DNA from: a virus
IMG/VR virus record: IMGVR_UViG_3300017917_001008
Span: 11,211-75,210 of that record
Length of the DNA stretch: 64,000 nt
Direction: 5' to 3' (one strand)
Made by a program: the position numbers and the translations under genes. The notes beneath the pieces were generated by a model that made no database searches, was not told where the DNA came from, and was given only the letters and a program-made list of their open reading frames with translations. Positions 12,389-31,900 of the stretch are shown in pieces (positions within the stretch are counted from its first letter, which is position 1; each line of letters begins with the position of its first letter).

Positions 12389-12405
12389 TAATCAAAGATA
12401 TTTTG

Positions 12406-17100: not shown

Positions 17101-19384
17101 CGGCATCATGCTGGATCCCCAGGAACTACAGGAGTTCGTTAGAACCGGTAAAAAGCCCACCACATTTATAGATCCTAACACCCTTCAGAATATACCGGAG
17201 TCTTCTCCAAAGTATGCTATTGCTCAAGGACTGCTGGAAAGAGATGATGAGATTAAGGATCCTCCTAAACCAGAAGCAGCCCCTACTGCTGAAGAACCAG
17301 TTGCTCCTACTACTACCACTACTGCCCCTACAAGTGCAGAATCTGCTCCGGCTGCTACAACAACAGCTGCCCCTACAGAATTAAATCTTGAAGCTGAGCT
17401 ACAAGTAAAACTGGAAGATGCTTACAACCAGTATGTAGAAGAGACTGGATCAGAGATTTCTTTTGAGGAGTTTGTAAAGACTACAAGAAGGGCCCGTAAC
17501 ATTATAAAGGATTTTAGAAGAGGCAAGCCAGCTGAGGCTGCACCAGCCCCTGCTACTACAGCAGCTACAGTAACACCTACCACTCCTTATGGTACACCAA
17601 CTGGTGAGCCTATTACAACAGCTACAGAAGCTGCTAAAGCTGATATAGAAAGAAGAAGACAAGAAGAATTAAATAACATACTTGGAGATGTAATAAAATT
17701 AGAAGAAGCAGATACTAAACAAAAAGCAACTCAAGCAATTGCGGATGCTACAAGAGAAGTGGGAAACAAGGCTTTAGATAAAGCTGGAATTATTATTGGA
17801 GAAGTTCAATGGGGTAAAAACATTATTGATGTAGCTAAAAGATTAGCTTTTAAAATAAGAGAAATACAAAAACCTGCTGTAGATAGAATCAATGCTAAAT
17901 ATGATGCAGAACTAGCTGCTTTAGAAGGAGCTAAACCTGCAGAAGCTGCAGCTCCTGTAGCTGAGGAAGCACCTTTAGACTTGACACCGGGGTTAATTAA
18001 AGTGTTTACAGAAGAAAAGGATAAGAAGATAGGAGAGTTACTTCCTGTCTATGGGCAAGCCCTGGCTTCTAAAGATCGTACAGAAGATGAGTCTGCTGTA
18101 TTGGCTGATCCTGTTAAATGGTTGGAAGAGCAGATAGAGAACGCTGAGGAGAATCTACAGAGAGATGAAGAGCGTTTAAAAACTTTAACTGAAGACGCCA
18201 AACCTGAGGTTGGAGAAGTATTTGTTACCGGAACTACATTAGGTCTAACTAATATTTACGGGACTGCTCCTAAAAACTTTATTGATAAAAGATCAACTCC
18301 TCAACGAGCTGCTTTAGAAAGGAACAAGAGTAAAGTGTTTGATGAAGAAGAAGCAGGAGGTAAGAAAGTATTCAGTATAGTGGATTGGTCAGTGGTGGAC
18401 AACGTGGGTAGACCAGGATACGTTGCCACTTCTATAGCGTTTGATAAAGACTCTACTATAACATTGGATGATGTAAAGGCTGATTTAGAAGCTGCACATG
18501 CACAAACTATGTCCGGTGTAGATCAGTTTGGTAAGATAAGTGAAGTTAAGATTCAACAAGCTTTAAAAGGAGCGTCTGTTAAGATCTCTAAAAACGAGAA
18601 AGCTGATCAAGTTAAGACTCGTATGGAGTCTGCAAAAGTTAGAATACAGAAGAGTAAGGCCAACCTTAAAAAGGTTAAGGCTGTAATGGATGAGTTTAAT
18701 GATAACATATCCAGGATCACTGGTAAACCTGTTGAACAAACTCAACCCGTTGAAAGAACAGAGCCGGTTACAGAAGCCGCTCCGGTGGTAGTGTCTACAG
18801 AAAAGACAGGTACACAAAAAGCCCAGGAGCTGGTTGATTCTATCACTTCTCTTAAGGATGTTCCTGATCTGTCTAAAGCAGACAGTAAGCCAGTCACTAT
18901 TGATCTGATTGAACTCATCTCTACCGGCCAGGCTAAGGCCAAAGATGTGGTGGCTATGATTGCTGCTAAGCGTAAAGAACTTCTACAGAATATATCAACA
19001 AAAGATCTACAAAAAGGTGATATGGTTACATTTGTAGATGGTAGAAAAGGTTTTGTAAAGTCTATCAACAAGAAGACAGTTACGTTTAAGATGGTTGGTT
19101 CCGAGAAAGGAGCTACAGAGCTTATAGACCAAAGCAAACTACCAGGTCTTATCACCAGTTTAGAATCAGGAAAAGCCCTCTCTATGGAACCCACTCCGGA
19201 AATAGAAATTACCCCTCAGGAAGAAACAGAAGTTAAGGCGTCACAAGATGCTTTAGCGTCCTTCACAGAAAACTCTGCTGCTGTAAAAGAAGCAGGAGAA
19301 AAAGCTGCCAAAGCTGCTGGTACAGATAACCAGGAAAACCTCAACAATCTCTTTAAGAACATTGGATGTAAAACAGGAAAGTAA
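14177..19384 (+). CDS. Giant ejection protein A with hydrophobic segments
   Basis: 1735 aa; hydrophobic Gly/Ala-rich segment near aa 215-255, coiled coils, Pro/Ala/Thr linkers; immediately upstream of the RNAP gene. Confidence 0.65.
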   Translation: MAEEMVNMISAEALDTQAAQAESLDNGLDLEFASTDALDAMGAFNLEQLDKEPASAGDPPGKPKPRTMQDLKRDYDKDLQNWKQITRYGIPMAADQTRNKFQAARVVEFDARKFNVDRYLGYGKSTFDKVGFSPFVDNEKNFNQNTTIWQDYGRMMSVFGPLVYQGAVSSYRSLADTFGSDRPVFSSDDETASEYARLNNIGMSTKGGPLGFANNLTLSMAYTVGTALSVVAEEALLFGLTVATEGAFGGAAAARTAFNIGRLGNAIKRGFQTEHVANILKGSTQLVKSLSKVGDAKDFYTAVRTGGTTFAKGTFQYLNPFSRTADDIYDLYRGSASVRNMSNLAKAKQTFGSFYRDVRDNNFALSESKLEGGSAKIDAIQRLTDEYEKKNGKAPEGDDLARIYDQAEDIGRGVTAVNFPVIFLTNRVVLDGLFKFRGFKTLEQAGELSTKGIGFKKGVGFYDNLADGWLKSSVNTLKNPKAYIGKGVNYFRRNLMEGVQENLQNVTSEAVANYYDGVYKDATLGGFDYAAGHAWDAIKKEMSSGQGLETFASGFLMGGLMGKAQNLFLKDVPQVYYWTKDKIAGTNKLQEYKLNKQRTRQDAINGLNELYKNPLKYFSSRNESAVVQKHTSDVMNLAEENGDAKTFQDAKDLKTFDNIFTALDNGTYDTLLEQFKELKKLSNDELANFLGVDKADPKMMNKLDEVVTRAAQIKERYDVVNDRFKNPFSPKNFKFGTEEFTKEAIAFRAFEAAKKSAVISQYGFDRALERMNGLYQDLSSNRPIRKASGSDITVLTDLNTLDNEINLLDKEVKSYAGVTDKDQKKLAEQKKEKLDLLMDYRDKLRTYRERMGENERDENGQIIISFNDAAEPLKNSYKAYLRYLGKVADDYMFDDKIDESFNKVLDYYSLDSDAKNYSKVVNNLMDPLNLYRHSQMIAANFTKLFQNREIDAEERIARSQRLVELNQLLLAFTANGIMLDPQELQEFVRTGKKPTTFIDPNTLQNIPESSPKYAIAQGLLERDDEIKDPPKPEAAPTAEEPVAPTTTTTAPTSAESAPAATTTAAPTELNLEAELQVKLEDAYNQYVEETGSEISFEEFVKTTRRARNIIKDFRRGKPAEAAPAPATTAATVTPTTPYGTPTGEPITTATEAAKADIERRRQEELNNILGDVIKLEEADTKQKATQAIADATREVGNKALDKAGIIIGEVQWGKNIIDVAKRLAFKIREIQKPAVDRINAKYDAELAALEGAKPAEAAAPVAEEAPLDLTPGLIKVFTEEKDKKIGELLPVYGQALASKDRTEDESAVLADPVKWLEEQIENAEENLQRDEERLKTLTEDAKPEVGEVFVTGTTLGLTNIYGTAPKNFIDKRSTPQRAALERNKSKVFDEEEAGGKKVFSIVDWSVVDNVGRPGYVATSIAFDKDSTITLDDVKADLEAAHAQTMSGVDQFGKISEVKIQQALKGASVKISKNEKADQVKTRMESAKVRIQKSKANLKKVKAVMDEFNDNISRITGKPVEQTQPVERTEPVTEAAPVVVSTEKTGTQKAQELVDSITSLKDVPDLSKADSKPVTIDLIELISTGQAKAKDVVAMIAAKRKELLQNISTKDLQKGDMVTFVDGRKGFVKSINKKTVTFKMVGSEKGATELIDQSKLPGLITSLESGKALSMEPTPEIEITPQEETEVKASQDALASFTENSAAVKEAGEKAAKAAGTDNQENLNNLFKNIGCKTGK

Positions 19385-22300
19385 TGGCTTGTAGATTAAC
19401 AGAAGATCAAATATCAGCTTTATTTGGAGCTATTCACGGAGAAGTGATTGCTTCTAAGAACCGTGATGATAAGTTTAATGCGGCACAGGCTATTCGTGCT
19501 TTATATCAAAGGCTGCTGGATGCTGGAGCTGAGCAGGTAAATGCTATGGACTATGTACAACATATACCAAGCATGTTGCAGCTTAGCTATGCTATGTTTG
19601 CAGACTCTAAGGCTCACATGAGAGCCAGTGGTGTGAACCTGTCTGAACTGGATCAGCTAGATGCAGACTTCACTGCAGATATTAAAAACGTGGCTAAGTT
19701 CCTGGGTGTAGACCAAGGCACAGCTGATGTTGTACAAGAGATCATTGAAGAGTCTAATCCCTCTACAGGGGTTATTCCCACAGATAACTATACACAGATA
19801 GAAGAGGGTGATATTGCTAAGAAGAAACCCTACTTTGATTCAGAGATAAGCTTTGTAGCAGCTCCTGAAACAGCTCTTGCTGTATTCAACCAGGAAGCCC
19901 AGGACTATAATGGTGTACAGGCTAAGCAGAACATACAAGACCCGGATCCTGTTAAGAAGGTGTATTACACCGTAGTGAGAAAGCTGAATGACCTGATGAC
20001 CGGCAGCAACCGCCAGACAGCAGATAAAGTGAAGCTTGGTGATGTAGAGGGTGTGTTCTTAAGACTAGTACCCGCTTCTATGATTGCCATGGAAGATCTG
20101 CAGGAAGCTGACAGACTTTACTATTCTACAGATGATGATCCCCGTATTCCTTTTTCCAAGACCTCTAAAACAAAGATGGAACTTAGAGAGAAAGGAGATG
20201 ATGTATACTTAGTCTATACAGACAAAGATGGTAACATACTTTATTTCAATGAAGAGGGTACACCTGTAGGAAAGGAAAATGGTGGTATGGTGGCTTACGG
20301 TAAGCTCCGTAGACCATACACTCCTAAGACTACCAATGAGGCTAAGGGTCAGGTGGCCGGTCGTAAAATGGTAGGAAGAGTACAGACTCCTCAAGACCTG
20401 GTGAGAAAAGGACTGGGTACACTGGAAGAAGTTACTAAAGAGCGTGATGAGGAAATAGAGATCCTTGAGAAGTCTCGTGAGTTTGTTTCCAAGAATCGTG
20501 ACGAGGTGGTGTTATTCTCTGTAACCCCTGGTAGAAATGGTTATGTAACAGAAGACTTTTCCAAGCCTAACCCAATCAGTTCTATAGATCTCACAGATGG
20601 ATTTAAACCTTATTTAAACAGCCAGGAAACTGGTGTATTGATTAAGGGCGGGGTGTATTTTAATGTCCCTGGCTACGAGTTCCCATTACTGATTCGTAGA
20701 CCAAAGTTTGGCAATGTACCAAACCTGTCAGGCAACCTGGCAGATATTGTGTTTGACTCAGATCTTTCTAACAAAGAAAAGATAGATGTATTAAGACAGT
20801 TTACCTACTCTGGAGACACTAAGATATTCCAGGGTAATGACGGCAAGCTTTATGTAAAGCAGATGGATCAAACTATGGAAGTCACTGCAGATAATAAGCA
20901 GGCTTTCATTGATAATCTAAACGGCCAAACTGTTAACATCAATAAGGACCTGATGCATAGAACCTTTAACATGCCAGTGAACCTGGATGGTAAAGTGACC
21001 CTGCAGCAGGAGCGTTATAATAACTTCCTGGCTAATAACTTCTATACCTTCCTGGCTAAGAATGACCAGAATAAGATTGTCAGCCTGAATGCGTATAACG
21101 TAATATTTCCTACAGAGGCAGCACAGGACAAGATCTTTGGTAAAGCAAAAGCAGCATCTAACGAGCAAACCTCTTCTTTAGAGCAAGCTACACCCACTGA
21201 TGTTACCAAGGATGAGTTTAAAGAATTACTAGACCGTACAGACTTCAGTTTAAAGAAGTCTACATTACTAAGCAGTAAGGCCACTGACGAACAGATTGCC
21301 GCTGCAGAGAAATGGTATAACAGCTCTCCGCTTTCTAAAGTGGTACCATTCCAGGTGATGTTTAACATTGTAAACTCAAATGCATTAGCAGAGTTTACCA
21401 CTGCAGGTATCACCCTGTGGAGCGGATCTAACTTTACAGATCTCTATCACGAGGGATGGCATGCTTTCACCCAGATGTTCCTGACCAAGGATCAGAAGAA
21501 AGAGTTGTACAATGAAGCCCGTAAACTCACCGGTACCTTCACTACAGTGAGCGGTGCTAAGGTGAAGTTCAGTGCAGCTACAGATATGCAGCTGGAAGAA
21601 TTCATGGCTGAAGACTTTAGAAAGTATGTACTGTCTGACCGTAAGAATATAATCAATGGCCGTCCGGTACGTAATACTATTTTCAGGAAGATCTTTAATT
21701 TCCTGAAGGTTGTATTCAGTAGCTATTCGTTAAAAGATATTGCTGCTGATCGTACAGCAGTGGCTAATATCCAGAGCCTGTATGACCAGCTGTTCATTGG
21801 AGAGATCCATGACTACAAGCCTTCCTTAAGAAACGTACAGTTTGGAATATTAAACAAGGGCGTAGAGGCTTTGGATGTCAAATCTAAAGACACGCTCACT
21901 TACCAGGATTCTATGACCCTGGTAGAAACTATTGACTCTTTAATAGCCTCCACTATGGTAGGTTATGGTAGGAGTGTAGCTGGTATATTTACTAACCCAG
22001 AACTCCTGGGCCCATTATACAAGAGAGTTAACACCAAGCTTGCTGAGCTTAGAGAAACCCTGGTTGCAGATCCAGAAAAAGCTAACAGCGTAAAGCTGAT
22101 AGACTTTGCCCTGACTAACTGGGGTGATTTTAGTAAGGTGGCTAAGGGTGAAGAATCCACTGGTGTACTGGCATTCCATAAAAAGCGTAGTGCATATTTT
22201 ACGTTTGATGATAAGATGGCCGAGATGGACGCTTATGATCAGAGTGTAAATGAAGATGCTGAAGAAGTTAAAGATGCAGATAATAATCTGGCTAAGTCTG

Positions 22301-25300
22301 AACAGCAGCTTCGTGAAGAGTTTGGATCCAACCCATTTGAACGTAAAGGAAACGAGCACTCTGTAAGAGAGCTTGCTTCTAACGAGGTGGTGTATTTGAT
22401 TAAGAGCTTACCGCAAGTAGATAAAAACGGAAAGGTGGTAACCAATGCATTGGGTGTTCCTAAGCTGGTTGACTTCAACCGCACCTGGGGTATTGTGATT
22501 AACACCGTAGCCGGTTCTAATACTACTTCCCAGATGTATGCCAAGCTTCTGGATGCAGCTACACGTTTTCCAGAGCTTAGAGCTTTGGTAGAACGCCTGG
22601 GTAATCCATTAGACCATACAGAAACTAAGGACTGGCCGTTCATGAAGATGTGGATTTCATTCTTTAGAGACTTCTCTGTGTATAGAATTCCTATCAAAGA
22701 AGGTCGTTTAGTAGACGGGCCTGGTGGGTTTAAGTTTGAGTTTACAGAAGTGGATCCTCAGTTTAAACAAGTGCACCGTGCTTTCCAGGCTCAGTTTGAA
22801 TCACTGGGTAGCAGTCCTTATATTACAAAGACTCCAACCGGTAATAAGCTAAACATAGAGAAGATTTTAAAGGACTTCCCTTACAGTTCCATCTTTGCTA
22901 AAGACAAGGTGATCATTGATGAAGATAAAGCCATGGAGTTTCTAAAAGCCATTGGTTTCTATCTGACAGATAACAGAGAGATCCGTAAAGCCATCCGGGA
23001 TAATTATGAAGCTGTGGCTTATATACACGGTCTTCCATACATGAAGAATCCAGGCGGATTGTTAAGACTGGCTGATAAGAAGGTGGATGTGTTCAATCCT
23101 ATTGACGCCCTGTGGAAGATTGGTAGTGAAAACACCAACGTACAGAAGATCCTCACTATAGAAGCTAAGCATAGCGGTAAGTTCAGTAATAACGCTGTTA
23201 CTAACGTTAACGGTGATATTGTTTATGACCTGTCATTAAACAACACAATCACCAGGCTGTTGAATGATCTTAATGATCCTTCTAAGGATTACACTATGAC
23301 CCAGGAGCAGCACCTGCAGCATCTGAACTTCCAGAGAAATCCTTTTGCTAAGTATTCCATCTGGATGAAGTCAATGTTCAGTATTCCTACAGGAAAGCTG
23401 GTTGACTTGTCTAATGAGAATAAAAGAATATCTCAGGATGTAAAATTTGGTGGTGGTTTTGTCTCTATGAACCTGGTAAACCTTGATGGTGTTAAGAGTG
23501 TACTGGCAAGAGATAATGCCGGTCAGTTGGTACAAAGCGGTATTAAAACAACCAGCCTGGATCCTGCATCTAAGTTCATCTTTGATTTGCACACTATGCT
23601 ACTCACCGGTACTATGGAGCTGCCAAGGCATGCTTCTAAGTCCAGTGCATATGGTGTAAGTGTATCCAAGGTGGACACTTCATATAACGAGAATGCTAAG
23701 CATCTATACATCAGCCCCGGTCATTTTGGTAAAAACGGTAAGGGTACAGAATACTCTGTAGAACTTCTATTGCCAAAGATTGCAGCTGAGATGGAGCGTA
23801 TAGCAATGGTTAACCAGGGATTGGTTCCAAGTATTCCGGGATTCAACGAGCGTGGTAAAGATTTCACCATGTTTGATGACATCTTAAGTGATACTACTAA
23901 AGAAGAGCTTAAGAGATTAGCAGATACAGAGGATTCCCTGTCTGTGATTCAGGATCCTGCCATTAAGCAGAAGATCACTGCAGATGTCAGGAACTATCTC
24001 AATCAGCTCTTTAAAGAAAACATGGAGCTGTATAAGTCTTTAGACTTTATGTCTGATGACTTGTTATTAAACTCCAGGAGCGGTAAGACTGATATCAAAG
24101 CCTTGATTGCTAAGGATACACTAGAGGTGGTAGGTGAAGATAGAACAGACTACCTGAAAGAGGTGGCTGTTAAAGCTTTCACCGTTAACTCTCTGATTCA
24201 TAACATGGAAGCTATTTCCGTTTTGTACGGAGACCTTGCTATGTATAACCACTTAAAAGAAGAATACCATAAGCGTAATGCTTCTATAGGTTCTACAGGT
24301 AGGATCTTTGCCAGTGACGGAGCTACCAATAAGTTCATTGAGAACCTGGGTAGAGGATATGCTAGATCCATTGGAGCCAGGGATAAAGGGTTTGATGGTA
24401 CACTAGACACTGCTATCTTTAAAGATAACGAGGTGCCTTCTGTTTATTATGATGAGTACCTGGAGGCTCTTACTAAGAAGTACGGAGCTGATAAGGCAAA
24501 GAAGATCCTGAAGCCTTATAAGAAGATGAATGAGGGTGACGCCCAGGGTTGGATTACATTTGATAGCTATCGTATCTTATCTATCCTGGAAGGTGCCTGG
24601 TCAGAAAAGCAGAATGAGCTTTACAATAAGATTATTAGAAATGAGCAGGTAGATCCTGCAGAGATCACCGAGTTCTTCCCAACTAAGAAGTTCCAGTATG
24701 CCGGTCCTCTAAAGACAGAGAAGCTTCACATACAGGCTTTCCATAAGTTCTCTTTGGTACCACTTATTCCAAGCTTGGTGAAGGGCACTAACATGCAGAC
24801 CCTTCATGACAACCTGGTAAAGCAGGGTAAAGACTACGCTCTGTTTGAGTCAGGATCTAAGCTGGCTACCATTACGGCTAACGGTAAACCAGATTCTCTG
24901 TATGAGAATGATGATTACAACACCCGTGTAGTTAAACCATGGAACGAGGGTGACCCTGCCTATACATCTAACGTTGTCTTTATACAATACTTAAAAGACC
25001 AGGTGGACATCCAATCTACTTGGAAAAACAAAACTGTCTTCTCTACACAGCTTCGTAAGCTGATCATCAATGACGTATTCAAACAAGGTTTGGGTATTGG
25101 AGAGTTTGACGGACTGGTTAAAGAGTTTGAAGGTTTATTAGATGACCTGCAGGAATATAAAAAGAAAGAGCTTTTACAACAAGCCGGCTGGACAGAGAAT
25201 GAGTCTGGAGAATTATCCGGAAGCACTCGTGAACTGCTGGAGTTTGTCATGAGAGAGATGGAGCGTCTTGAGCTTCCTGAACATGACGTAGACTTTGTAA

Positions 25301-28300
25301 GAGATAGTCTTAATGATGGTACGTTCACAGACTTAAGCTTCTCACTCAATGCTGAGAAGATTGAAAAGATGCTGAACAACATTGTTGTAAAGCGTCTGGT
25401 AAAACAAAAGATGAACGGTGAGCAGCTGGTGCAGTTGTCTGGTGCCGGTTTTGAATCTGCCGGTTCACGTTTTACCAATGCAACAGAAGAGGAAATTAAG
25501 AAGTACCGTGGTACTAATAACTTACCTACCTATCGTCCTGGTGCAGGAAAAGATGGTAAGACCACTGCCATGAAGGTGAAGATAGCTATAAAAGGAGACT
25601 ATTACAAGCTTCTTAATCTTAAGCACAATGACGGTAAGAAGATCGGTACCCGTGAGCGTCTGAACGAGATGATCAAAGATGACAAGTGGTTAGACAAAGG
25701 GGACAACCGTAAGATGATCACTATGGTGGGTGTGCGTATTCCTGTACAAGGTTTAAACTCTATGGAGTTTATGGAGATCTATGAGTTCCTGCCTGAAGAA
25801 GCCGGATCTGTGATCATCCCGCCTGCAGAGATCGTAGCCAAGTCTGGTTCTGACTTTGATATTGATAAGCTCACTATATTCCAACCTCATATTGGTATTA
25901 GGATTAACCGTAATACTACCAAGTCTAAGCTGAAAGAACTGGCTAAGAAGTATCCTGACCTGGACTTCAGCTTGGATAATGTAAACACCATCCTGGATGC
26001 ATCTGAAAATGACTTCAGTGTGTACATGCCTACCGAGCAGGAGATGAAGGTGTATAAAGTGCTGGTACAGGAAGCATCTGATGAATTACCCACTTACATA
26101 AAAGGTAAGGGTATGAAGTCTACAGAGAACCAGATCATTGAGAAGATCCGTACCATCCTGGAGCACCCAGATAACTTTGATGCCCTTATACGTCCTAACG
26201 ACACTGACCTGGTAAAAGGTGTGGCTGATGAACTGGCTGAACTAAACATCCAGGGGTATGATCCGTTTGCTGTAAAGACCGGTAATACCCGTACTAGTAT
26301 CAAGGGTGGTAAAGAAAGCAAGGTGATTTCTCCAACCCGTGCTTTAGAACCTAGGTATAATCTTTACAAGCATGAGTCTAACAACATTGGTAAGAAGACT
26401 CTTGGTATCGGTGCTGTAGACAACGCCTACTCTTCTATATTCAAGAGAGTAGGGGCTCGTCTTGAAAAGAACTACACCCACTACAAGAAAGAAGACGGAA
26501 GGTTTGTATATGATAAGAGTGGAAACATAGTTAAGCAGATCCGTCCTATAAACATTAGGATGAAGCATAATACCATTAAAGAGAACGGCACTGAATACAT
26601 TTCTCTTTCTGATATTGAAACCGTAACCATGGATAAGGTGAGTGACCTTATAGGCCAGCTCATGAATGGTTGGGTGGATATTGAGAAAGACGCCTGGATC
26701 TTTAACATCAACGGAAACTCCATTGCTGGCCCGGTGTTATTGTTCTTACTGGAAACCGGTGTAGACTTCAAAACAGCAGCTTATTTCGTATCCCAGCCTT
26801 TAGTGGTGCAGTATGTGAAAGAGATGTACATGAGTGACTCTCCGTTCTATCCTGCAGTTAATCCTGGAGCTGAAACTGAAAAAGGCCTGAAGCGTCATAA
26901 GATACGCCAGAAGTTTTTTGAAGATCTGAAAATAGCTCCGTTAAAACCTACTAAGTTTTTTGGTCCGGTGTTATCTAATGATATTCTATACAAGGCTATC
27001 AATGATTATAACGCTAATAAGGAATACACAGTAGAGAGTCTGCGTGAGGTGATTAAGAACAAGGACGTAAAGAGTAAAGATGCCATTGCGGGTCTGTTAC
27101 ACTTTATGGAACTGGAAGACCTGGGTAAACAGCTCACTAACATCAAGCTCACTGTAAACGTAGACACGGCTCCATCTAAGAGTCTGTTTGCTGCCAACCA
27201 GCGTATAGATAAGATTGAGGATCTGGAGTATGTTGACTCTGTACCTAAATCTGTTATTAATAAGATCTTATATGATTCTCCTATCCGCTCCTTCCTGGTG
27301 CAGAAGTTCCAGCTGGGTATATTAAAACCGCTGATGAAACTAAGAGGAGATAGCCAGATCAATAACTTCTTATTGGACGTCATGAAGGGTGCAAACTACC
27401 CTTCTGCGTTTAACACACCAGAGAAGTTTGTAGCTGCTTTCCATAATGACCTACCGCTGTACTTGTTACAGAACCATCTTAAGGGATTGGATATCAACTC
27501 CTTAACTGAGTATAAAGGAATGGCCGTTAAAGAAGCTATGCCTGTAAAGAATGTACAGTTACGCCAGGGTGCTTTTGTAAAAGACGGTGTGATGTACATT
27601 GACCGTGACCAGATTGCAGAAGACTTTAACACTAAGGCTTTTGCAGGAGAGGGTTATGAAAAGCAGGGACTGGCTAAGTTGGATCCTCAGACATTCAACA
27701 TGGGAGATAACTCTCAGAACTTACAGGAGTATGTTCACTTCGTATTAGAACGTGAATACTTAAGATCTGTAATCCCTGTAGGTGATGTAACCCGTGAAGT
27801 GTATGAGCGTAAGATAGCAACACGTGCTTTAGAGCGTACGTTTAACTTCTTCCATATGCTGAAAGCTCCTGGAGAAAGTATTGCAGATAAATTCCTGGAG
27901 ATCAAAACAAAATATCCTAAGCTTTCTGAGGACTTCCTTATCATGACGGAGCTGGGGTATAACAATGATGCAGCCAAGACTGATGATGATGGTAACGTAA
28001 AAGAGGTGAAGAACAAAAAGATGCGTACCCTAAAGCTGAAGAGTCAGCGTTTGGATACGGACTTTGCTAACGTGCTTCATGAAAACCTGTTACGTCTGGC
28101 AGATCCTATGACTATAAAGGTGGAAGATCCTAATGCAAACAGGGAGATCAGCCAGTTCTTTACACGCATGATCGTAGCAGAGTATCTCCGTGCTGGTATT
28201 ACCAGGAGCGGTGAGAACCTGGCTAAGATATTACCGGTGAATACACTGCGTCAACTGATGGCAGAACCATTACAGGAGTTTTCTAAGAAGAGTAATAAGA

Positions 28301-28965
28301 ACCAGGTGTTGAATCAGTATTACACCCAGTTTAAGAAAAAGTGGGATAATGAAAACTCAAGCTCTCGTTTGAAGTTCCGTAACTATCTCACTACGTTTGA
28401 TATCAAGGGAACCAAGTCTGTTTCTCTGAATAATCCTTCAGAGATTATAGACGGAGCTGAGCTGAATAAAAATGCCCAGGGTCTATATGTCTATCCAAAA
28501 ATAGCTGGGTCTGCCAGTGCAAAAAATATTGTTAAGAATCATAATAACATTATATTTGCCTACCCCAATATAAGTGATAGTAAGGCTATTAAGACCACGT
28601 TTGATGCTGCTAGTAATTCGGTGAGTTTCCCAATCACTACAGACGGTAAGACTCCACTTTCAGACGAGAACTTTGAAGAGAATGTTAGATTGATAGATGA
28701 TGCCATCACTTCTATAGAAACACAGTTTGAGCTTGGTAACGAGGTGGCTTTCCCTGAAGAAGGTTTCAACATGCTAGATGGGAAAGATCTATTGCTTAAT
28801 GCTCCCCGCACTAAGAGTTACATGGCCCAGGAGCTGTACAAACGCCTTGCTTACATCATGCCAGGTATGCACAATGAGAAAGCTATACGCTCTCAGGTTC
28901 AGGCAAACCAGGAAATTACAGATGAGATGGTAGAGGAGTTCATGAAAAAATGCTTTGGAAACTAA
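19384..28965 (+). CDS. Virion-packaged RNA polymerase (crAss-like) with N-terminal zincin domain
   Basis: 3193 aa; RIPVQG and GSDFDIDK catalytic loop (25846-25869); HEGWH at 21448-21462. Confidence 0.9.
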   Translation: MACRLTEDQISALFGAIHGEVIASKNRDDKFNAAQAIRALYQRLLDAGAEQVNAMDYVQHIPSMLQLSYAMFADSKAHMRASGVNLSELDQLDADFTADIKNVAKFLGVDQGTADVVQEIIEESNPSTGVIPTDNYTQIEEGDIAKKKPYFDSEISFVAAPETALAVFNQEAQDYNGVQAKQNIQDPDPVKKVYYTVVRKLNDLMTGSNRQTADKVKLGDVEGVFLRLVPASMIAMEDLQEADRLYYSTDDDPRIPFSKTSKTKMELREKGDDVYLVYTDKDGNILYFNEEGTPVGKENGGMVAYGKLRRPYTPKTTNEAKGQVAGRKMVGRVQTPQDLVRKGLGTLEEVTKERDEEIEILEKSREFVSKNRDEVVLFSVTPGRNGYVTEDFSKPNPISSIDLTDGFKPYLNSQETGVLIKGGVYFNVPGYEFPLLIRRPKFGNVPNLSGNLADIVFDSDLSNKEKIDVLRQFTYSGDTKIFQGNDGKLYVKQMDQTMEVTADNKQAFIDNLNGQTVNINKDLMHRTFNMPVNLDGKVTLQQERYNNFLANNFYTFLAKNDQNKIVSLNAYNVIFPTEAAQDKIFGKAKAASNEQTSSLEQATPTDVTKDEFKELLDRTDFSLKKSTLLSSKATDEQIAAAEKWYNSSPLSKVVPFQVMFNIVNSNALAEFTTAGITLWSGSNFTDLYHEGWHAFTQMFLTKDQKKELYNEARKLTGTFTTVSGAKVKFSAATDMQLEEFMAEDFRKYVLSDRKNIINGRPVRNTIFRKIFNFLKVVFSSYSLKDIAADRTAVANIQSLYDQLFIGEIHDYKPSLRNVQFGILNKGVEALDVKSKDTLTYQDSMTLVETIDSLIASTMVGYGRSVAGIFTNPELLGPLYKRVNTKLAELRETLVADPEKANSVKLIDFALTNWGDFSKVAKGEESTGVLAFHKKRSAYFTFDDKMAEMDAYDQSVNEDAEEVKDADNNLAKSEQQLREEFGSNPFERKGNEHSVRELASNEVVYLIKSLPQVDKNGKVVTNALGVPKLVDFNRTWGIVINTVAGSNTTSQMYAKLLDAATRFPELRALVERLGNPLDHTETKDWPFMKMWISFFRDFSVYRIPIKEGRLVDGPGGFKFEFTEVDPQFKQVHRAFQAQFESLGSSPYITKTPTGNKLNIEKILKDFPYSSIFAKDKVIIDEDKAMEFLKAIGFYLTDNREIRKAIRDNYEAVAYIHGLPYMKNPGGLLRLADKKVDVFNPIDALWKIGSENTNVQKILTIEAKHSGKFSNNAVTNVNGDIVYDLSLNNTITRLLNDLNDPSKDYTMTQEQHLQHLNFQRNPFAKYSIWMKSMFSIPTGKLVDLSNENKRISQDVKFGGGFVSMNLVNLDGVKSVLARDNAGQLVQSGIKTTSLDPASKFIFDLHTMLLTGTMELPRHASKSSAYGVSVSKVDTSYNENAKHLYISPGHFGKNGKGTEYSVELLLPKIAAEMERIAMVNQGLVPSIPGFNERGKDFTMFDDILSDTTKEELKRLADTEDSLSVIQDPAIKQKITADVRNYLNQLFKENMELYKSLDFMSDDLLLNSRSGKTDIKALIAKDTLEVVGEDRTDYLKEVAVKAFTVNSLIHNMEAISVLYGDLAMYNHLKEEYHKRNASIGSTGRIFASDGATNKFIENLGRGYARSIGARDKGFDGTLDTAIFKDNEVPSVYYDEYLEALTKKYGADKAKKILKPYKKMNEGDAQGWITFDSYRILSILEGAWSEKQNELYNKIIRNEQVDPAEITEFFPTKKFQYAGPLKTEKLHIQAFHKFSLVPLIPSLVKGTNMQTLHDNLVKQGKDYALFESGSKLATITANGKPDSLYENDDYNTRVVKPWNEGDPAYTSNVVFIQYLKDQVDIQSTWKNKTVFSTQLRKLIINDVFKQGLGIGEFDGLVKEFEGLLDDLQEYKKKELLQQAGWTENESGELSGSTRELLEFVMREMERLELPEHDVDFVRDSLNDGTFTDLSFSLNAEKIEKMLNNIVVKRLVKQKMNGEQLVQLSGAGFESAGSRFTNATEEEIKKYRGTNNLPTYRPGAGKDGKTTAMKVKIAIKGDYYKLLNLKHNDGKKIGTRERLNEMIKDDKWLDKGDNRKMITMVGVRIPVQGLNSMEFMEIYEFLPEEAGSVIIPPAEIVAKSGSDFDIDKLTIFQPHIGIRINRNTTKSKLKELAKKYPDLDFSLDNVNTILDASENDFSVYMPTEQEMKVYKVLVQEASDELPTYIKGKGMKSTENQIIEKIRTILEHPDNFDALIRPNDTDLVKGVADELAELNIQGYDPFAVKTGNTRTSIKGGKESKVISPTRALEPRYNLYKHESNNIGKKTLGIGAVDNAYSSIFKRVGARLEKNYTHYKKEDGRFVYDKSGNIVKQIRPINIRMKHNTIKENGTEYISLSDIETVTMDKVSDLIGQLMNGWVDIEKDAWIFNINGNSIAGPVLLFLLETGVDFKTAAYFVSQPLVVQYVKEMYMSDSPFYPAVNPGAETEKGLKRHKIRQKFFEDLKIAPLKPTKFFGPVLSNDILYKAINDYNANKEYTVESLREVIKNKDVKSKDAIAGLLHFMELEDLGKQLTNIKLTVNVDTAPSKSLFAANQRIDKIEDLEYVDSVPKSVINKILYDSPIRSFLVQKFQLGILKPLMKLRGDSQINNFLLDVMKGANYPSAFNTPEKFVAAFHNDLPLYLLQNHLKGLDINSLTEYKGMAVKEAMPVKNVQLRQGAFVKDGVMYIDRDQIAEDFNTKAFAGEGYEKQGLAKLDPQTFNMGDNSQNLQEYVHFVLEREYLRSVIPVGDVTREVYERKIATRALERTFNFFHMLKAPGESIADKFLEIKTKYPKLSEDFLIMTELGYNNDAAKTDDDGNVKEVKNKKMRTLKLKSQRLDTDFANVLHENLLRLADPMTIKVEDPNANREISQFFTRMIVAEYLRAGITRSGENLAKILPVNTLRQLMAEPLQEFSKKSNKNQVLNQYYTQFKKKWDNENSSSRLKFRNYLTTFDIKGTKSVSLNNPSEIIDGAELNKNAQGLYVYPKIAGSASAKNIVKNHNNIIFAYPNISDSKAIKTTFDAASNSVSFPITTDGKTPLSDENFEENVRLIDDAITSIETQFELGNEVAFPEEGFNMLDGKDLLLNAPRTKSYMAQELYKRLAYIMPGMHNEKAIRSQVQANQEITDEMVEEFMKKCFGN

Positions 28966-28980
28966 TTATAATCATACCCT

Positions 28981-31900
28981 ATGTTAGCGTGCCCTAATAA
29001 AAACACTAAAGATTGGCAAGACCTTGTTGACCAGTTAGGAGAGAAGGAAGCTTTCAGAGCCTACCTCACTATTGGTGACGGAACTATTCCTACAGCCCAG
29101 CAATACGTACAGTATAGCAGGCAGGCTAGTGAGGAAAAAGGAGAGATTGGTGTTAACAAGCAACAGCTGTTGATGCTTCTTGGCCCCACCATGTATAACA
29201 AGCCGCTTGCACAGGTGGCTGTAAAAGAGTTGTTACAGAATTCATTTGATGCTATTAAAGCCATGCACAACATGCGTGGTAAAACTGTAACTACTACACC
29301 TGCTGTAGACAAGTCTGCTCTGATCCGTGAGTTTAACCAGGTGCAGAGTCAGATTAAAGCTGAATCAGCTAAGGTTACTTTTGACAGTGAAGGAGATGTG
29401 CTTACAGGTGATCCTTTTGTAGTGAGCAAGCTGGTAGACAGACGTGCTGCTTTACAGGAGCAGATTGCCAACTTTGATCAGAACCAGAAAGCTAACGCTA
29501 CTACTAAGACTGGTTACGAAGGGCCGCTGGGTAATATTAAGTTTACCATTAACTATGACGACCGTACCATCTCTATACAGGATGATGGTATTGGTATGAC
29601 GCCTGATATTGTCAAGAAGGCGTTTCTCTCTATTGGTGGTACCAATAAAGAAGGACTATCTACAGGTGAGCGTTCCGGTGGATTTGGTCTGGCCAAAGTG
29701 CAGTTCTTATTGGGTAGTGAGTACGTAGAAGTGTCTACAGTGAGAGATGGTACAAGAACCTCTATTAAGGCTACCAACCTAGAGCTTTATAATGATGACT
29801 TTACTATCCGTACAGAGCCTACCAACGAACCTAACGGTACGTTTGTAAAGGTGAAGATACCAGAAACCTACACTACACCAGAAGGAACTGTTCGTACCAT
29901 TGACTTCCCTGGATCTTGGTCATCTGATCCAATAGAGCGTTTTGATATTTTAAACCAGCCCCTGATTGGTAATCTAAATGTCTCTGCAGATGTAGTGAAG
30001 AACGGTAGGACAACTAATAAGGTGTTGCCAATAGGTAAGAACATCTCTAAGGAATTATTACCTCCATTACTTTCTAATGTAAAGTTTGCCTGGGGTGAAG
30101 CTGAAGTGTACGTAGGAGAGAACAAAACAGAGTCTCCTAGACATAGAATACTTTCATCTGGATTATACCAGTTTAGTAAACGTATAGAGATTGCAAACTG
30201 GGAACCCATTCCTTATGATATTGTAATCAATATTAAACCGTCTGTAAGTTCTACAGCGGAGCAGTATCCATTTAACAACCAGCGTGAGGATTTCAAGAAT
30301 ACGGTTTCTAAAGATGTAGATAGCCTATACGCCTATTTAAGAAAGTACGCCAGGGGAGAAGCTGAGAAAGATTTAGTGGATGTATTCCAGAATATCAAGT
30401 CTTTACCTAAAACTGACCCTAACAAGATACTCACTCCTGAAGAGAGAGCTAAACTCTATGAAGAAGTAGAAAACACCATAGCTGAATCTAAACGCTTACG
30501 TGAGCAGTATGGCAGTCAGCTTAACCAGCCACGTCAGACTACAAGACTGGTGATCAGCCAGGGATCTGTAACGGATGAAGAGACTGGTGCACAAGTGGAA
30601 GTGGAGAAAGAGAAAAGCTATGAGTCTACATTTAAGGCTGATAAAGAGATTGAGTTAGGTAAGTCTGTAGACACATCTGCATTTAAAGAGAACGAACCCC
30701 AGTTTCATAATAACACTAACGTAGACTATTTGTCTATGCCCGGAGCTATAGAGTTCTTTAGTGACTTTGGTACTGTAGTGTATGAGATGGTAAGGTTTGC
30801 CGGTAGGGAGTTAGGCCACCGTTACAGCAAGCTTACAGGACAAGAAGGTAAGTTTTTTGCAGGTGTATCCATTGATAAAACCTACGGTGGCGTGCATGTC
30901 CGTAAAGTGATAGATGCCATCTTCATTAACCCGCTTTCTTTTGACATCTCCAGTGTAGAAGAAGCTGCAGGTTTGATGACCCACATCATTATACATGAGA
31001 TTAACCACACTACAGAGTCAGGTGAAGGAGCCAACTTTACCACTGCTCTGGCTAAGCTATATGGTAAGATATATGAGACCGGTAAGTATGGCTACTTTGA
31101 GGGGTTGGTTAGATCTGTATATCGTAAACATTTTGATACCTTTGTAAAACTAAAATCAGAATATGACAAGTCCACTACAAGAAATCTTGCAGCTTCGTTT
31201 GAAGGAAACGAACTCAATAGAGGCAGTGAAGGGAACCTTCAAGGGAATGCTTCAGCTGTACGAGCAGGAGAACAGACCTCTGGCAGAGATCAACGAGATC
31301 AGGAAGATCTTAGCGGATCTAGACAAGAAGACCGCACAGGAGACGTTATAATCAGTCAGCTTAACAATCCACAGACAAGTGTACCTACACTTCCTCCTGT
31401 GGAAGCCCAAAGAGCTGAGATAGGTCAAAACATAGTGCGTGCCATTGCAGACACGCTTGCTGCTAACTTAGGTGTTTCCTACACCTTAGTCACTCCTGAA
31501 GAAGCAGCTCAGCTAACAGCTAATTCCCGTAATCCATGGAAAGGTGAGAAAGCTTTCTTCTACAATGGCCAGGTGTATTTCCTGGACGGAGGCTTTACAA
31601 CAGACTCTGTACTACACGAGTTTTCACATCCACTGGTAGCAGCTATTGCTGTACAGAATCCTACGTTATTTAAGAATCTTTATGAGCAGCTGGAATCCAC
31701 ACCAGAAGGTAAGGCTGTAATAGCTGAAGTGGAAGCTTTGTATCCGGAGTTTAAACCTACAGATACCAAGTTCCGTGAAGAGGCTTTAGTAAGAGCTATG
31801 ACCGCTAAAGCTATCAACCAGATCAAGGGACAGAAACCTTCTACAGGGTTTAATGATGTGATCAACAAGATGTTGTTTGCCATTAAGCAAATGTTCCGTA

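What the first reader, a model, noticed from the sequence alone, without database searches (positions are those of the whole stretch)
19367..28992. Only four cysteines in ~7450 aa of giant cargo, all at facing termini: possible disulfide-linked ejection chain
By manual scan, protein A (1735 aa) has one Cys, 5th from the end (IGCKTGK, 19367). The RNAP (3193 aa) has exactly two: residue 3 (MAC, 19390) and 4th from the end (KKCFGN, 28951). Protein C (2521 aa) has one, residue 4 (MLAC, 28990). The free ends (A N-term, C C-term) and the two preceding cargo proteins have none. Cys avoidance is expected in proteins ejected unfolded, but retention only at junctions matching gene order suggests A-RNAP-C are joined head-to-tail by disulfides or metal bridges. 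They could then be threaded in order through the tail and released in the reducing cytoplasm.
Basis: partly seen in the sequence, partly recalled or inferred. Interest (0 to 1): 0.85.

Follow-up and report, generated by a model that had tools for sequence, protein, structure and literature searches.

The report
Terminal cysteine pairs chain crAss cargo
Three giant proteins that this crAss-like phage most likely packs into its particle and injects, its RNA polymerase among them, have no cysteine except one at each end facing the next protein. Relatives keep this rule through gene splits and fusions, which points to untested end-to-end disulfide links like one already seen in a cyanophage.

Summary
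Proteins A (1735 aa), B (3193 aa, the virion RNA polymerase homologue) and C (2521 aa) hold four Cys in 7449 residues, at A-1731, B-3, B-3190 and C-4. About 72 would be expected from the window's other proteins.

The pattern is conserved:
- 113 of 120 B homologues have both terminal Cys.
- 55 of 56 A homologues have only a C-terminal Cys.
- 75 of 76 C orthologues have an N-terminal Cys and none at the C-terminus.
- In 79 related viral loci, 142 gene junctions have Cys on both sides, 84 on neither and 1 on one side.

Split genes carry a pair at the new break. A+B fusions have none at the fusion point. The rule also holds in phi14:2 and in crAss001, where A's counterpart lies on the opposite strand.

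The best reading is head-to-tail linkage of the cargo proteins, most likely by disulfides formed in the released virion. Nothing here shows the bond. In cyanopodophage A4 the same sequence signature (gp27 Cys1715, gp26 Cys5) is a disulfide seen by cryo-EM, and I found it conserved in A4's relatives.

I found no paper describing this for Crassvirales. This scan has already flagged the same pattern on other DNA (96 findings in at least 89 genomes).

The parts
10901..12388 (+). Cys-free cargo-block protein (495 aa) upstream of the chain
   Evidence: 0 Cys. No Pfam or PHROG hit.
12403..14175 (+). Cys-free cargo-block protein (590 aa from TTG, or 589 aa from the ATG at 12406)
   Evidence: 0 Cys.
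14177..19384 (+). Protein A, the first member of the chain (1735 aa). Its only Cys is residue 1731, 4 residues from the end.
   Evidence: 55 of 56 homologues have exactly one Cys, 0-6 residues from the C-end, and there are no internal Cys in 95,306 aa.
19367..19369 (+). TGT codon of A Cys1731 (...NIGCKTGK)
19384..28965 (+). Protein B, the virion RNA polymerase homologue and middle member (3193 aa). Its only Cys are residues 3 and 3190. Its ATG overlaps A's stop codon by 1 nt.
   Evidence: tblastn matches crAss001 gp50 and the phi14:2 vRNAP. 113 of 120 homologues have both terminal Cys. C3 is invariant and C3190 is at least 90% conserved in alignment A1.
19390..19392 (+). TGT codon of B Cys3 (MACRLTED)
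21448..21462 (+). HEGWH (HExxH, zincin-like motif) in the N-terminal third of B
   Evidence: H689, E690 and H693 are invariant in A1.
25852..25866 (+). DFDID catalytic motif of the two-barrel RNAP in B
   Evidence: D2157, D2159 and D2161 are invariant. The same motif is described for phi14:2 gp66 (preprint 10.1101/2020.03.07.982082).
28951..28953 (+). TGC codon of B Cys3190 (...FMKKCFGN)
28981..36546 (+). Protein C, the last member of the chain (2521 aa). Its only Cys is residue 4. It is a homologue of crAss001 gp49 and phi14:2 gp076.
   Evidence: A profile built from C orthologues hits crAss001 gp49, phi14:2 gp076, IAS gp057 and cr4_1 gp27. 75 of 76 orthologues have an N-terminal Cys and none has a C-terminal one.
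28990..28992 (+). TGC codon of C Cys4 (MLACPNKN). C4 and N6 are invariant in alignment A2.
29128..31380 (+). GHKL-ATPase/HEINH module (C residues about 50-800), inserted between C's N-terminal cap and its core. It contains no Cys.
   Evidence: Pfam HATPase_c_3 hit. In other genomes this module ends a separate protein that has Cys at both ends (P0234, P0235).
31615..31629 (+). HEFSH (HExxH) of the C core
   Evidence: H879, E880 and H883 are invariant in A2.

Best explanation
A, B (the virion RNA polymerase) and C are internal cargo proteins of a crAss-like phage. Selection has removed nearly all their cysteines, as is usual for proteins ejected through the cell envelope. One Cys is kept within 0-9 residues of every polypeptide end that faces the next member of the block. 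The Cys at the C-end of one protein pairs with the Cys at the N-end of the next, giving A-B and B-C links. The link is most likely a disulfide that forms once the particle leaves the reducing cytoplasm, after the conserved flanking motifs have docked non-covalently. The cargo is thereby stitched into one linear thread of about 7,450 residues with only tiny side stubs.

Shown here: the sequence pattern, its conservation, and its strict both-or-neither behaviour at gene junctions through splits and fusions.

Shown by others: a disulfide of exactly this layout in the cyanophage A4 virion, and the presence of intermolecular disulfides in crAss001 virions.

Inferred: that the crass pairs are disulfides, that the thread leaves the capsid in a set order, and that reduction in the host cytoplasm frees the polymerase.
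For: (1) The pattern in the window is exact and far beyond chance.
(2) It is conserved. 113 of 120 B homologues have both terminal Cys and 119 have the C-terminal one; the 7 without an N-terminal Cys are mostly shortened or mis-started gene calls. 55 of 56 A homologues have only a C-terminal Cys. 75 of 76 C orthologues have only an N-terminal one. Internal Cys frequency is about 0.01% or less.
(3) In 79 IMG/VR loci, junctions between adjacent large ORFs have Cys on both sides 142 times, on neither side 84 times and on one side once.
(4) Splits create pairs. In L022, B is split at about residue 570 and the break has Cys on both sides. L030, L046, L048 and L081 carry an extra 574-754 aa member with Cys at both ends. 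L056, L068 and L074 carry a 242-261 aa member whose only two Cys are residue 3 and the last residue. P0234 and P0235 end with the GHKL module and have Cys at both ends, whereas the same positions in this window's unsplit B and C hold no Cys.
(5) Fusions remove pairs. The A+B fusion proteins of Suoliviridae (cr4_1, cr118_1, cr50_1, cr56_1) and of cr108_1 have no N-terminal Cys and no Cys pair at the fusion region, and cr4_1 has none in its first 2179 aa. They keep the pair between B's C-end and C's N-end. The long, probably B+C, proteins of crAss002 and cr271_1 keep the A-B pair.
(6) The rule holds in the characterised phages: phi14:2 gp078 (C-0), vRNAP (N3, C-1), gp076 (N3); crAss001 gp47 (C-2), gp50 (N5, C-8), gp49 (N5). 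In crAss001, gp47 is on the opposite strand, so the pattern is not a side-effect of adjoining genes.
(7) Precedent: A4 gp27 (1717 aa, sole Cys 1715) and gp26 (1114 aa, sole Cys 5) are consecutive gene products joined by a disulfide seen by cryo-EM (PMC12002296; sequences). The signature is conserved in Pf-WMP3, Pf-WMP4 and TR020 at 23-27% identity.
(8) crAss001 virions contain intermolecular disulfides in the portal-vertex protein gp57 and between tail hub and ring proteins (PMC10172136).
(9) Tight gene spacing, with a 1-nt overlap at A/B and 15 nt at B/C, fits equimolar synthesis.
Against: There is no direct evidence of a bond or even of a contact between these termini. The RNAP-block proteins were not resolved in the crAss001 reconstruction. 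Gut crassviruses live in an anoxic habitat where spontaneous oxidation is uncertain, and the disulfides seen in crAss001 could have formed during aerobic purification. No thiol-redox enzyme was found in the 75-kb record, which is only about 60% complete. Some gut lineages carry 2-14 internal Cys (IAS virus, cr271_1), so Cys exclusion is not absolute. There are two exceptions among the 79 loci: the B protein of L074 lacks an N-terminal Cys (its start is uncertain, with a 197-nt gap), and in L083 A is split without Cys at the break (a possible frameshift). A4 gp27 and gp26 show no detectable sequence homology to A, B or C, so that precedent is an analogy. I could not confirm by profile that the Intestiviridae giants are B+C fusions.
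Confidence: 0.65

Rival explanations
1. The facing Cys pairs bridge the proteins through a bound metal ion or another thiol chemistry (for example a Lys-Cys bridge), not through a disulfide. The chain topology is the same but the bond differs.
For: The pairing data say nothing about the chemistry. Some homologues have His next to the Cys (MAQHCALS, DFMNHC...), and Lys often flanks it (KKCFG, GCKTGK). An anoxic gut would favour metal binding over oxidation.
Against: One Cys per terminus gives only two thiol ligands. His is absent next to the Cys in this window and in most lineages. In the one solved case with the same signature the link is a disulfide.
Confidence: 0.1
2. The pairing is different. 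Each middle protein closes on itself (N-end Cys to C-end Cys), and the first and last proteins pair with each other or stay free.
For: The counts alone, [C] [N,C]xk [N], fit this as well as they fit a linear chain.
Against: The fusions argue against it. In A+B fusions the two Cys that remain (B's C-end and C's N-end) would each have lost their partner under this model. Under the chain model they are exactly one native pair. The same holds for the A-B pair kept beside the long crAss002 and cr271_1 proteins. The A4 structure shows pairing between the C-end of the upstream protein and the N-end of the downstream protein. A looped protein would have to pass a narrow channel doubled over.
Confidence: 0.05
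3. Each terminal Cys acts independently and the two sides of a junction do not pair. Each could anchor the protein to another virion component (portal, capsid interior, another cargo protein) or form transient mixed disulfides with host envelope thiol-disulfide enzymes during passage.
For: crAss001 structural proteins do use intermolecular disulfides. Cys suppression in ejected proteins has been ascribed to periplasmic disulfide catalysts (PMC11445570).
Against: Independent anchors do not predict the both-or-neither rule (142: 84: 1). They also do not predict loss of both Cys at fusion points, or outer ends (A's N-end, C's C-end) that never carry a Cys in about 130 homologues. The two upstream cargo proteins here have no Cys to serve as partners.
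Confidence: 0.1
4. The pattern has no protein-level function. It would be chance, a nucleotide-level signal at gene junctions, or a relic of a polyprotein cleavage site or a split intein.
For: The genes abut or overlap, so junction sequences could be constrained for translation.
Against: Chance is excluded. crAss001 and IAS virus keep the Cys on gp47/gp058 although that gene lies on the other strand, away from the RNAP gene. The codons and flanking nucleotides differ between lineages while the Cys stays. Fused proteins have no Cys at the junction, so it is not a cleavage-site motif. Only 0-9 residues lie beyond each Cys, which leaves no room for intein halves.
Confidence: 0.02

Closest known systems
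Cyanopodophage A4 (Anabaena phage A-4L) ejection proteins gp27 and gp26 (PNAS 2025, PMC12002296)
   Same: Two consecutive genes encode large internal ejection proteins. The upstream protein's only Cys is 2 residues from its C-end (1715 of 1717), and the downstream protein's only Cys is residue 5. The pair is conserved in relatives (Pf-WMP3, Pf-WMP4, TR020). Cryo-EM shows it as a disulfide in the pre-ejectosome.
   Different: A4 has one link between two proteins and no RNA polymerase. It belongs to another phage family (Saffermanviridae) and shows no detectable sequence homology to A, B or C. The A4 paper treats the bond as a local stabiliser and does not state a general rule. In crass-like phages the rule covers 2-4 links, follows gene splits and fusions, and spans a whole order.
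Crassvirales RNAP block: phi14:2 gp65-gp66-gp67 (GenBank gp076-078; vRNAP structure, Drobysheva et al.) and crAss001 gp47/gp50/gp49 (Bayfield et al. 2023)
   Same: B shares the DFDID two-barrel RNAP core with these (21-26% identity), and C is homologous to gp49/gp076. The three-protein block shows the same terminal-Cys layout. [quoted passage not shown]
   Different: Neither paper mentions the cysteines. This window's lineage is distant: megablast finds nothing, PHROGs has no hit for A, B or C, and A has no detectable homology to gp47. Its B and C are larger and carry HExxH and GHKL modules. It is also stricter, with no internal Cys at all.
Cys-free ejection proteins of Schitoviridae (N4 gp50, DEV gp71-73; PMC11445570)
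   Same: These are giant virion RNA polymerases and companion ejection proteins with strong suppression of cysteine, ascribed to passage through the envelope.
   Different: Those proteins have essentially no Cys at all, their termini included, so they lack the linking signature. Their RNAP is T7-like and is not related to the two-barrel enzyme here.
Disulfide-stabilised capsids reduced on entry (polyoma- and papillomaviruses; from my own knowledge, not checked here)
   Same: The logic is the same: bonds form outside the cell, hold the particle contents together, and are undone by the reducing cytoplasm.
   Different: Those bonds link capsid shell subunits of eukaryotic viruses. They do not link the termini of internal proteins that are threaded through a tail.

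Membership tests
Crassvirales virion RNAP block (vRNAP plus two partner proteins) | Two-barrel RNAP with a DFDxD catalytic motif in the central giant protein | tested here: met
   DFDID at B residues 2157-2161, invariant in 24 homologues.
Crassvirales virion RNAP block (vRNAP plus two partner proteins) | Sequence homology of B to crAss001 gp50 and phi14:2 gp66 | tested here: met
   tblastn finds 72 phage records, all crAss-like by organism name, at 21-26% identity over up to about 950 aa, with E down to 8e-31.
Crassvirales virion RNAP block (vRNAP plus two partner proteins) | The downstream partner is homologous to crAss001 gp49 / phi14:2 gp076 | tested here: met
   The C-orthologue profile hits gp49 (E 8e-36), gp076 (1e-18), IAS gp057 and cr4_1 gp27.
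Crassvirales virion RNAP block (vRNAP plus two partner proteins) | The upstream partner is homologous to crAss001 gp47 / phi14:2 gp078 | tested here: not met
   The A profile gives no hit to gp47, gp078 or IAS gp058. Only the position, the size and the C-terminal Cys correspond.
Crassvirales virion RNAP block (vRNAP plus two partner proteins) | The proteins are packaged in the virion and ejected | not testable with these tools
   Known for crAss001 and phi14:2 by mass spectrometry and inferred here by homology.
Head-to-tail disulfide-linked ejection proteins (A4 gp27-gp26 type) | The Cys lie at the facing C-end and N-end of consecutive internal proteins that are otherwise nearly Cys-free | tested here: met
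Head-to-tail disulfide-linked ejection proteins (A4 gp27-gp26 type) | The pair is conserved among relatives | tested here: met
   Crass lineage. A4 lineage.
Head-to-tail disulfide-linked ejection proteins (A4 gp27-gp26 type) | The disulfide is observed in the virion | not testable with these tools
   Seen only for A4. It needs non-reducing gels, mass spectrometry or cryo-EM on a crassvirus.
Head-to-tail disulfide-linked ejection proteins (A4 gp27-gp26 type) | Sequence homology to A4 gp27 or gp26 | tested here: not met
   phmmer and profile searches of A, B and C against A4 gp26-gp29 give nothing at E up to 10.
Split inteins / protein trans-splicing | An N-intein half after the upstream extein and a C-intein half, ending in Asn, before a +1 Cys | tested here: not met
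   Only 0-9 residues lie beyond the C-terminal Cys and 1-6 before the N-terminal Cys, which leaves no room for intein halves.
Cys-free ejection proteins of Schitoviridae | Complete absence of Cys, termini included | tested here: not met
   Internal Cys are absent but the four terminal Cys are conserved. For the contrast with N4-like phages.

The most novel reading that the evidence does not exclude
Across the whole order Crassvirales and its environmental relatives, the RNAP-block cargo leaves the capsid as one disulfide-stitched protein thread of 5,000-9,000 residues, so that the first protein pulls the next through the tail and envelope channel. Reduction of the links by host cytoplasmic thiol systems then acts as the switch that releases and activates the virion RNA polymerase, which is self-inhibited in its crystal structure. 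Gene fusion and disulfide linkage would then be interchangeable ways of building the same thread.
Probability: 0.3. Interest if true: 0.85.

Novelty: new variant of a known kind. Interest (0 to 1): 0.72.

Why it matters
Crassviruses are the most abundant phages of the human gut. How they move megadaltons of protein, including a polymerase of 2,000-4,000 residues, through a narrow tail ahead of the DNA is an open question, and the crAss001 atlas could not resolve these proteins. A conserved covalent head-to-tail link would explain several things: how order and 1:1:1 delivery are ensured, why the genes fuse and split so freely, and how release could be tied to arrival in the reducing cytoplasm. 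It can be tested at once in two cultured systems (phi14:2 and crAss001) with gels and mass spectrometry. The signature also gives a simple sequence rule for spotting chained ejection proteins in uncultured phages, and for correcting gene starts, as with crAss002 gp33.

Tried and rejected
- Megablast of 18000-30000 against the phage collection found no match.
- PHROGs gave no family for A, B or C. Pfam gave only a sub-threshold DUF7831 hit at B's C-end and the GHKL hits in C.
Nothing was folded and I did not pursue it by other routes.
- Single-chain structure predictions were not run. The tool reports no coordinates, so it could not give distances between termini.
- A profile built from A homologues against crAss001, phi14:2, IAS, crAss002, cr271_1 and cr4_1 proteins gave no hits, so I could not confirm by homology that the N-terminal halves of the Suoliviridae giants are A-like. 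The C profile did not detect a C-like part in crAss002 gp33 or cr271_1 g693. Those fusion assignments rest on length, position and the statement in the phi14:2 preprint.
- Homology between A4 gp26-29 and A, B or C: none.
- Thioredoxin, glutaredoxin and Erv-type oxidase searches in the window's own record found nothing. The record is about 60% complete, and the Erv control found nothing in any control genome, so that search says nothing.
- A first MAFFT run timed out and was redone with a faster setting.
- Readings considered and rejected: a nucleotide-level artefact at gene junctions, a polyprotein cleavage motif and split inteins (reasons are under the rival explanations).
- I did not run a tree-aware covariation test of the junction motifs. 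The two sides of a junction are at most 30 nt apart, so they are inherited together and covariation would not be independent evidence.
Full report
**1. The observation.** The window carries a run of plus-strand ORFs.
- A (14177-19384, 1735 aa) has one Cys, residue 1731 (...NIGCKTGK).
- B (19384-28965, 3193 aa) has two, residues 3 (MACRL...) and 3190 (...KKCFGN).
- C (28981-36546, 2521 aa) has one, residue 4 (MLACPN...).
- The two ORFs before A (495 and 590 aa) have none.

The remaining ORFs of the window average 0.97% Cys. That predicts about 72 Cys in A+B+C, against 4 found (P about 6e-26). Given counts of 1, 2 and 1, the chance that each Cys falls within 6 residues of a facing end is about 6e-11.

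**2. What the proteins are.** The window is bases 11211-75210 of a 75,210-base IMG/VR virus record, estimated about 60% complete. B carries the DFDID catalytic motif at 2157-2161 and an invariant HExxH at 689-693. By tblastn it matches 72 phage records, all crAss-like by organism name. These include crAss001 gp50 and the structurally solved vRNAP of Cellulophaga phage phi14:2, at 21-26% identity. A profile of C orthologues hits crAss001 gp49, phi14:2 gp076, IAS virus gp057 and cr4_1 gp27. A has no detectable homologue among the named crassviruses and corresponds to gp47/gp078 only by position, size and its C-terminal Cys. C consists of an N-terminal cap (residues 1-33), an inserted GHKL-ATPase/HEINH module (about 50-800) and a conserved core with HEFSH (818-2514). 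In crAss001 and phi14:2 the counterparts of A, B and C are virion proteins by mass spectrometry, and the phi14:2 polymerase is delivered into the cell (PMC10172136; preprint 10.1101/2020.03.07.982082). Packaging of this window's proteins is therefore inferred by homology.

**3. Conservation.** I searched about 5.8 billion proteins with each of A, B and C and mapped every Cys.
- Of 120 B homologues (down to 31% identity), 119 have a Cys 0-6 residues from the C-end and 113 also have one at residue 3-6. The 7 without an N-terminal Cys are mostly shortened or mis-started gene calls. 98 have no other Cys at all, and internal Cys make up 0.009% of 396,692 residues.
- Of 56 A homologues, 55 have exactly one Cys, 0-6 residues from the C-end, and none has a Cys anywhere else in 95,306 residues.
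- Of 76 C orthologues, 75 have a Cys at residue 2-6 and none has one at the C-end.
- Homologues that have acquired AlkB, helicase or ADP-ribosyltransferase-type inserts still hold only the terminal Cys.

**4. Genome-by-genome pairing.** A scan of IMG/VR with an alignment of B gave 79 loci with 10-kb flanks. ORFs were called by a neutral rule (first ATG, at least 300 aa). Junctions between neighbouring ORFs then have Cys on both sides 142 times, on neither side 84 times and on one side once. The outer ends of the block never carry a Cys. The single mismatch (L074) has a 197-nt gap before the called start of B, so the start is doubtful.

**5. Splits and fusions.** These are the most telling cases.
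- In L022, B is cut at about residue 570 into proteins of 602 and 2440 aa, and the new break has Cys on both sides (...NSCK | MRLCS...). Nearly all unsplit B proteins have no internal Cys, and this window's B has none there.
- L030, L046, L048 and L081 have an extra member of 574-754 aa between B and the C core, with Cys at both ends.
- L056, L068 and L074 have a member of only 242-261 aa whose sole two Cys are residue 3 and the very last residue.
- P0234 and P0235 end with the GHKL module that is internal to this window's C, and they carry Cys at both ends.
- Conversely, the 4,461-4,946 aa A+B fusion proteins of Suoliviridae (cr4_1, cr118_1, cr50_1, cr56_1) and the intron-split fusion of cr108_1 have no N-terminal Cys and no pair at the fusion region. 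cr4_1 has no Cys in its first 2179 residues. All of them keep the pair between their C-end and the N-end of the next protein.
- crAss002 and cr271_1 have a long second protein, probably B+C, and keep the A-B pair. For crAss002 this requires moving the annotated start 32 codons downstream to MSC.
- One locus (L083) has A split without Cys at the break, with a 4-nt overlap. This may be a frameshift.

**6. Not a gene-junction artefact.** phi14:2 shows gp078 with a Cys as its last residue, the vRNAP with Cys3 and a Cys one residue from the end, and gp076 with Cys3, and no others. crAss001 shows gp47 (C-2), gp50 (N5, C-8 and one internal Cys) and gp49 (N5). In crAss001 and IAS virus the gp47-type gene lies on the opposite strand, away from the polymerase gene. 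The Cys is therefore a property of the protein ends and does not depend on the genes abutting.

**7. Which Cys pairs with which.** Counting alone cannot separate a linear chain (A-B, B-C) from self-closure of the middle proteins plus a first-last pair. The fusions can. In A+B fusions the two surviving Cys are exactly one pair under the chain model, but two orphans under the alternative. The same applies to the surviving A-B pair beside the long Intestiviridae proteins. The both-or-neither rule and the bare outer ends also argue against independent anchoring of each Cys to some third protein.

**8. Chemistry and precedent.** An earlier follow-up of this scan pointed to cyanopodophage A4, and I checked the lead myself. 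[quoted passage not shown] In the A-4L genome, gp27 is 1717 aa with Cys1715 as its only Cys, gp26 is 1114 aa with Cys5 as its only Cys, and the genes are consecutive. That is the same signature as here. As a calibration I looked at relatives at 23-27% identity (Pf-WMP3, Pf-WMP4, TR020). Each keeps a sole Cys 1-2 residues from the end of the gp27-like protein and a Cys5 in the gp26-like protein. So in the one family where the bond has been seen, the sequence signature is conserved in the same way. There is no detectable homology between the A4 proteins and A, B or C, so this is an analogue and I do not count it as a relative. Separately, crAss001 virions contain intermolecular disulfides in gp57 and between tail hub and ring proteins, so such bonds can exist in crassvirus particles. 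Suppression of Cys in ejected proteins is known for N4-like phages, whose proteins have none at all, not even at the ends (PMC11445570).

**9. Mechanism proposed.**
- Shown: the pattern and its evolutionary behaviour.
- Inferred: the proteins dock end to end through the conserved flanking motifs (for example ...LGCKT with MAC-x-L-S, and ...KKCFG with M-x-x-CPN). After lysis the facing thiols oxidise to disulfides. The cargo then forms one thread with stubs of at most 9 residues, which suits passage in a partly unfolded state through constrictions that the crAss001 atlas describes. Host cytoplasmic reductants would finally separate the proteins.

The tight gene spacing, a 1-nt overlap at A/B and 15 nt at B/C, fits equimolar synthesis. 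A metal bridge, or an absence of bonds under anoxic gut conditions, cannot be excluded from sequence.

**10. Novelty.** Full-text searches found no paper that mentions these cysteines in crass-like phages, and neither the crAss001 atlas nor the phi14:2 polymerase paper does. The kind of link is known from A4. Its extension to a multi-link chain that includes the polymerase, tracks gene fission and fusion, and spans an order of very abundant phages is a new variant. The scan itself has noted the same pattern before on other DNA (96 findings in at least 89 genomes). My verdict rests on the tests run here.

Noticed in passing
L087 (uncultured phage cr108_1, MT774385) 17790-18108: A group I intron (Rfam RF00028, 80 bits, E 1e-20) interrupts the virion RNAP gene inside its catalytic motif (...AGSD | YDIDK...). 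As a result the gene is annotated as two ORFs.
   Followed up: partly
L004 (Bacteroides phage crAss002, MN917146) 15948-16050: The annotated start of gp33 lies 32 codons upstream of MSCTPSNP. The conserved M-x-C start of this protein family suggests that the real start is there.
   Followed up: partly
L003 (IAS virus, NC_049978) 14399-23381: gp055 and gp056 (the RNAP) overlap at a stretch containing ambiguous bases. They are probably one ORF whose N-end carries the expected Cys5.
   Followed up: no
L018, L020, L028, L032, L034, L058, L060: the ~1000-aa ORF upstream of A (L023 and L030 carry the same motif in 5'-truncated ORFs): An upstream cargo protein has just two Cys, in a conserved C-[ILVM]-D-x3-C-G-[GD] motif. 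crAss001 gp45 (C390/C398) and phi14:2 gp080 (C369/C378) have similar close pairs. The corresponding proteins of this window have no such pair.
   Followed up: partly
window 29128-31380: The GHKL-ATPase/HEINH module of C is a mobile cassette. Here it sits between C's N-terminal cap and core. In other genomes it forms the C-terminal part of a separate chain member (P0234, P0235), or it is absent (C orthologues of about 1,800 aa).
   Followed up: partly
P0265-P0293 (distant GHKL hits to C, with PF18857/PF18858 domains): Giant 'polyvalent' proteins of other mobile elements are also almost free of Cys, many with 0 in about 3,000 aa. They lack the terminal Cys.
   Followed up: no
L083 2791-9998: The A homologue is split into 1613 and 789 aa ORFs with a 4-nt overlap and no Cys at the break. 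This is the only split without a pair, and it may be a frameshift or a very recent event.
   Followed up: no
L086, L091, L092 (A-4L, Pf-WMP3, Pf-WMP4): the peptidase ejection protein: The gp28-like peptidase has only two Cys, a CxxC about 20 residues from its C-end (1036/1039, 975/978, 989/992). TR020 lacks it.
   Followed up: no
window 21448-21462: B carries an invariant HExxH (HEGWH) about 1,470 residues upstream of the polymerase catalytic motif, so a zincin-like module is fused to the polymerase in this lineage.
   Followed up: no
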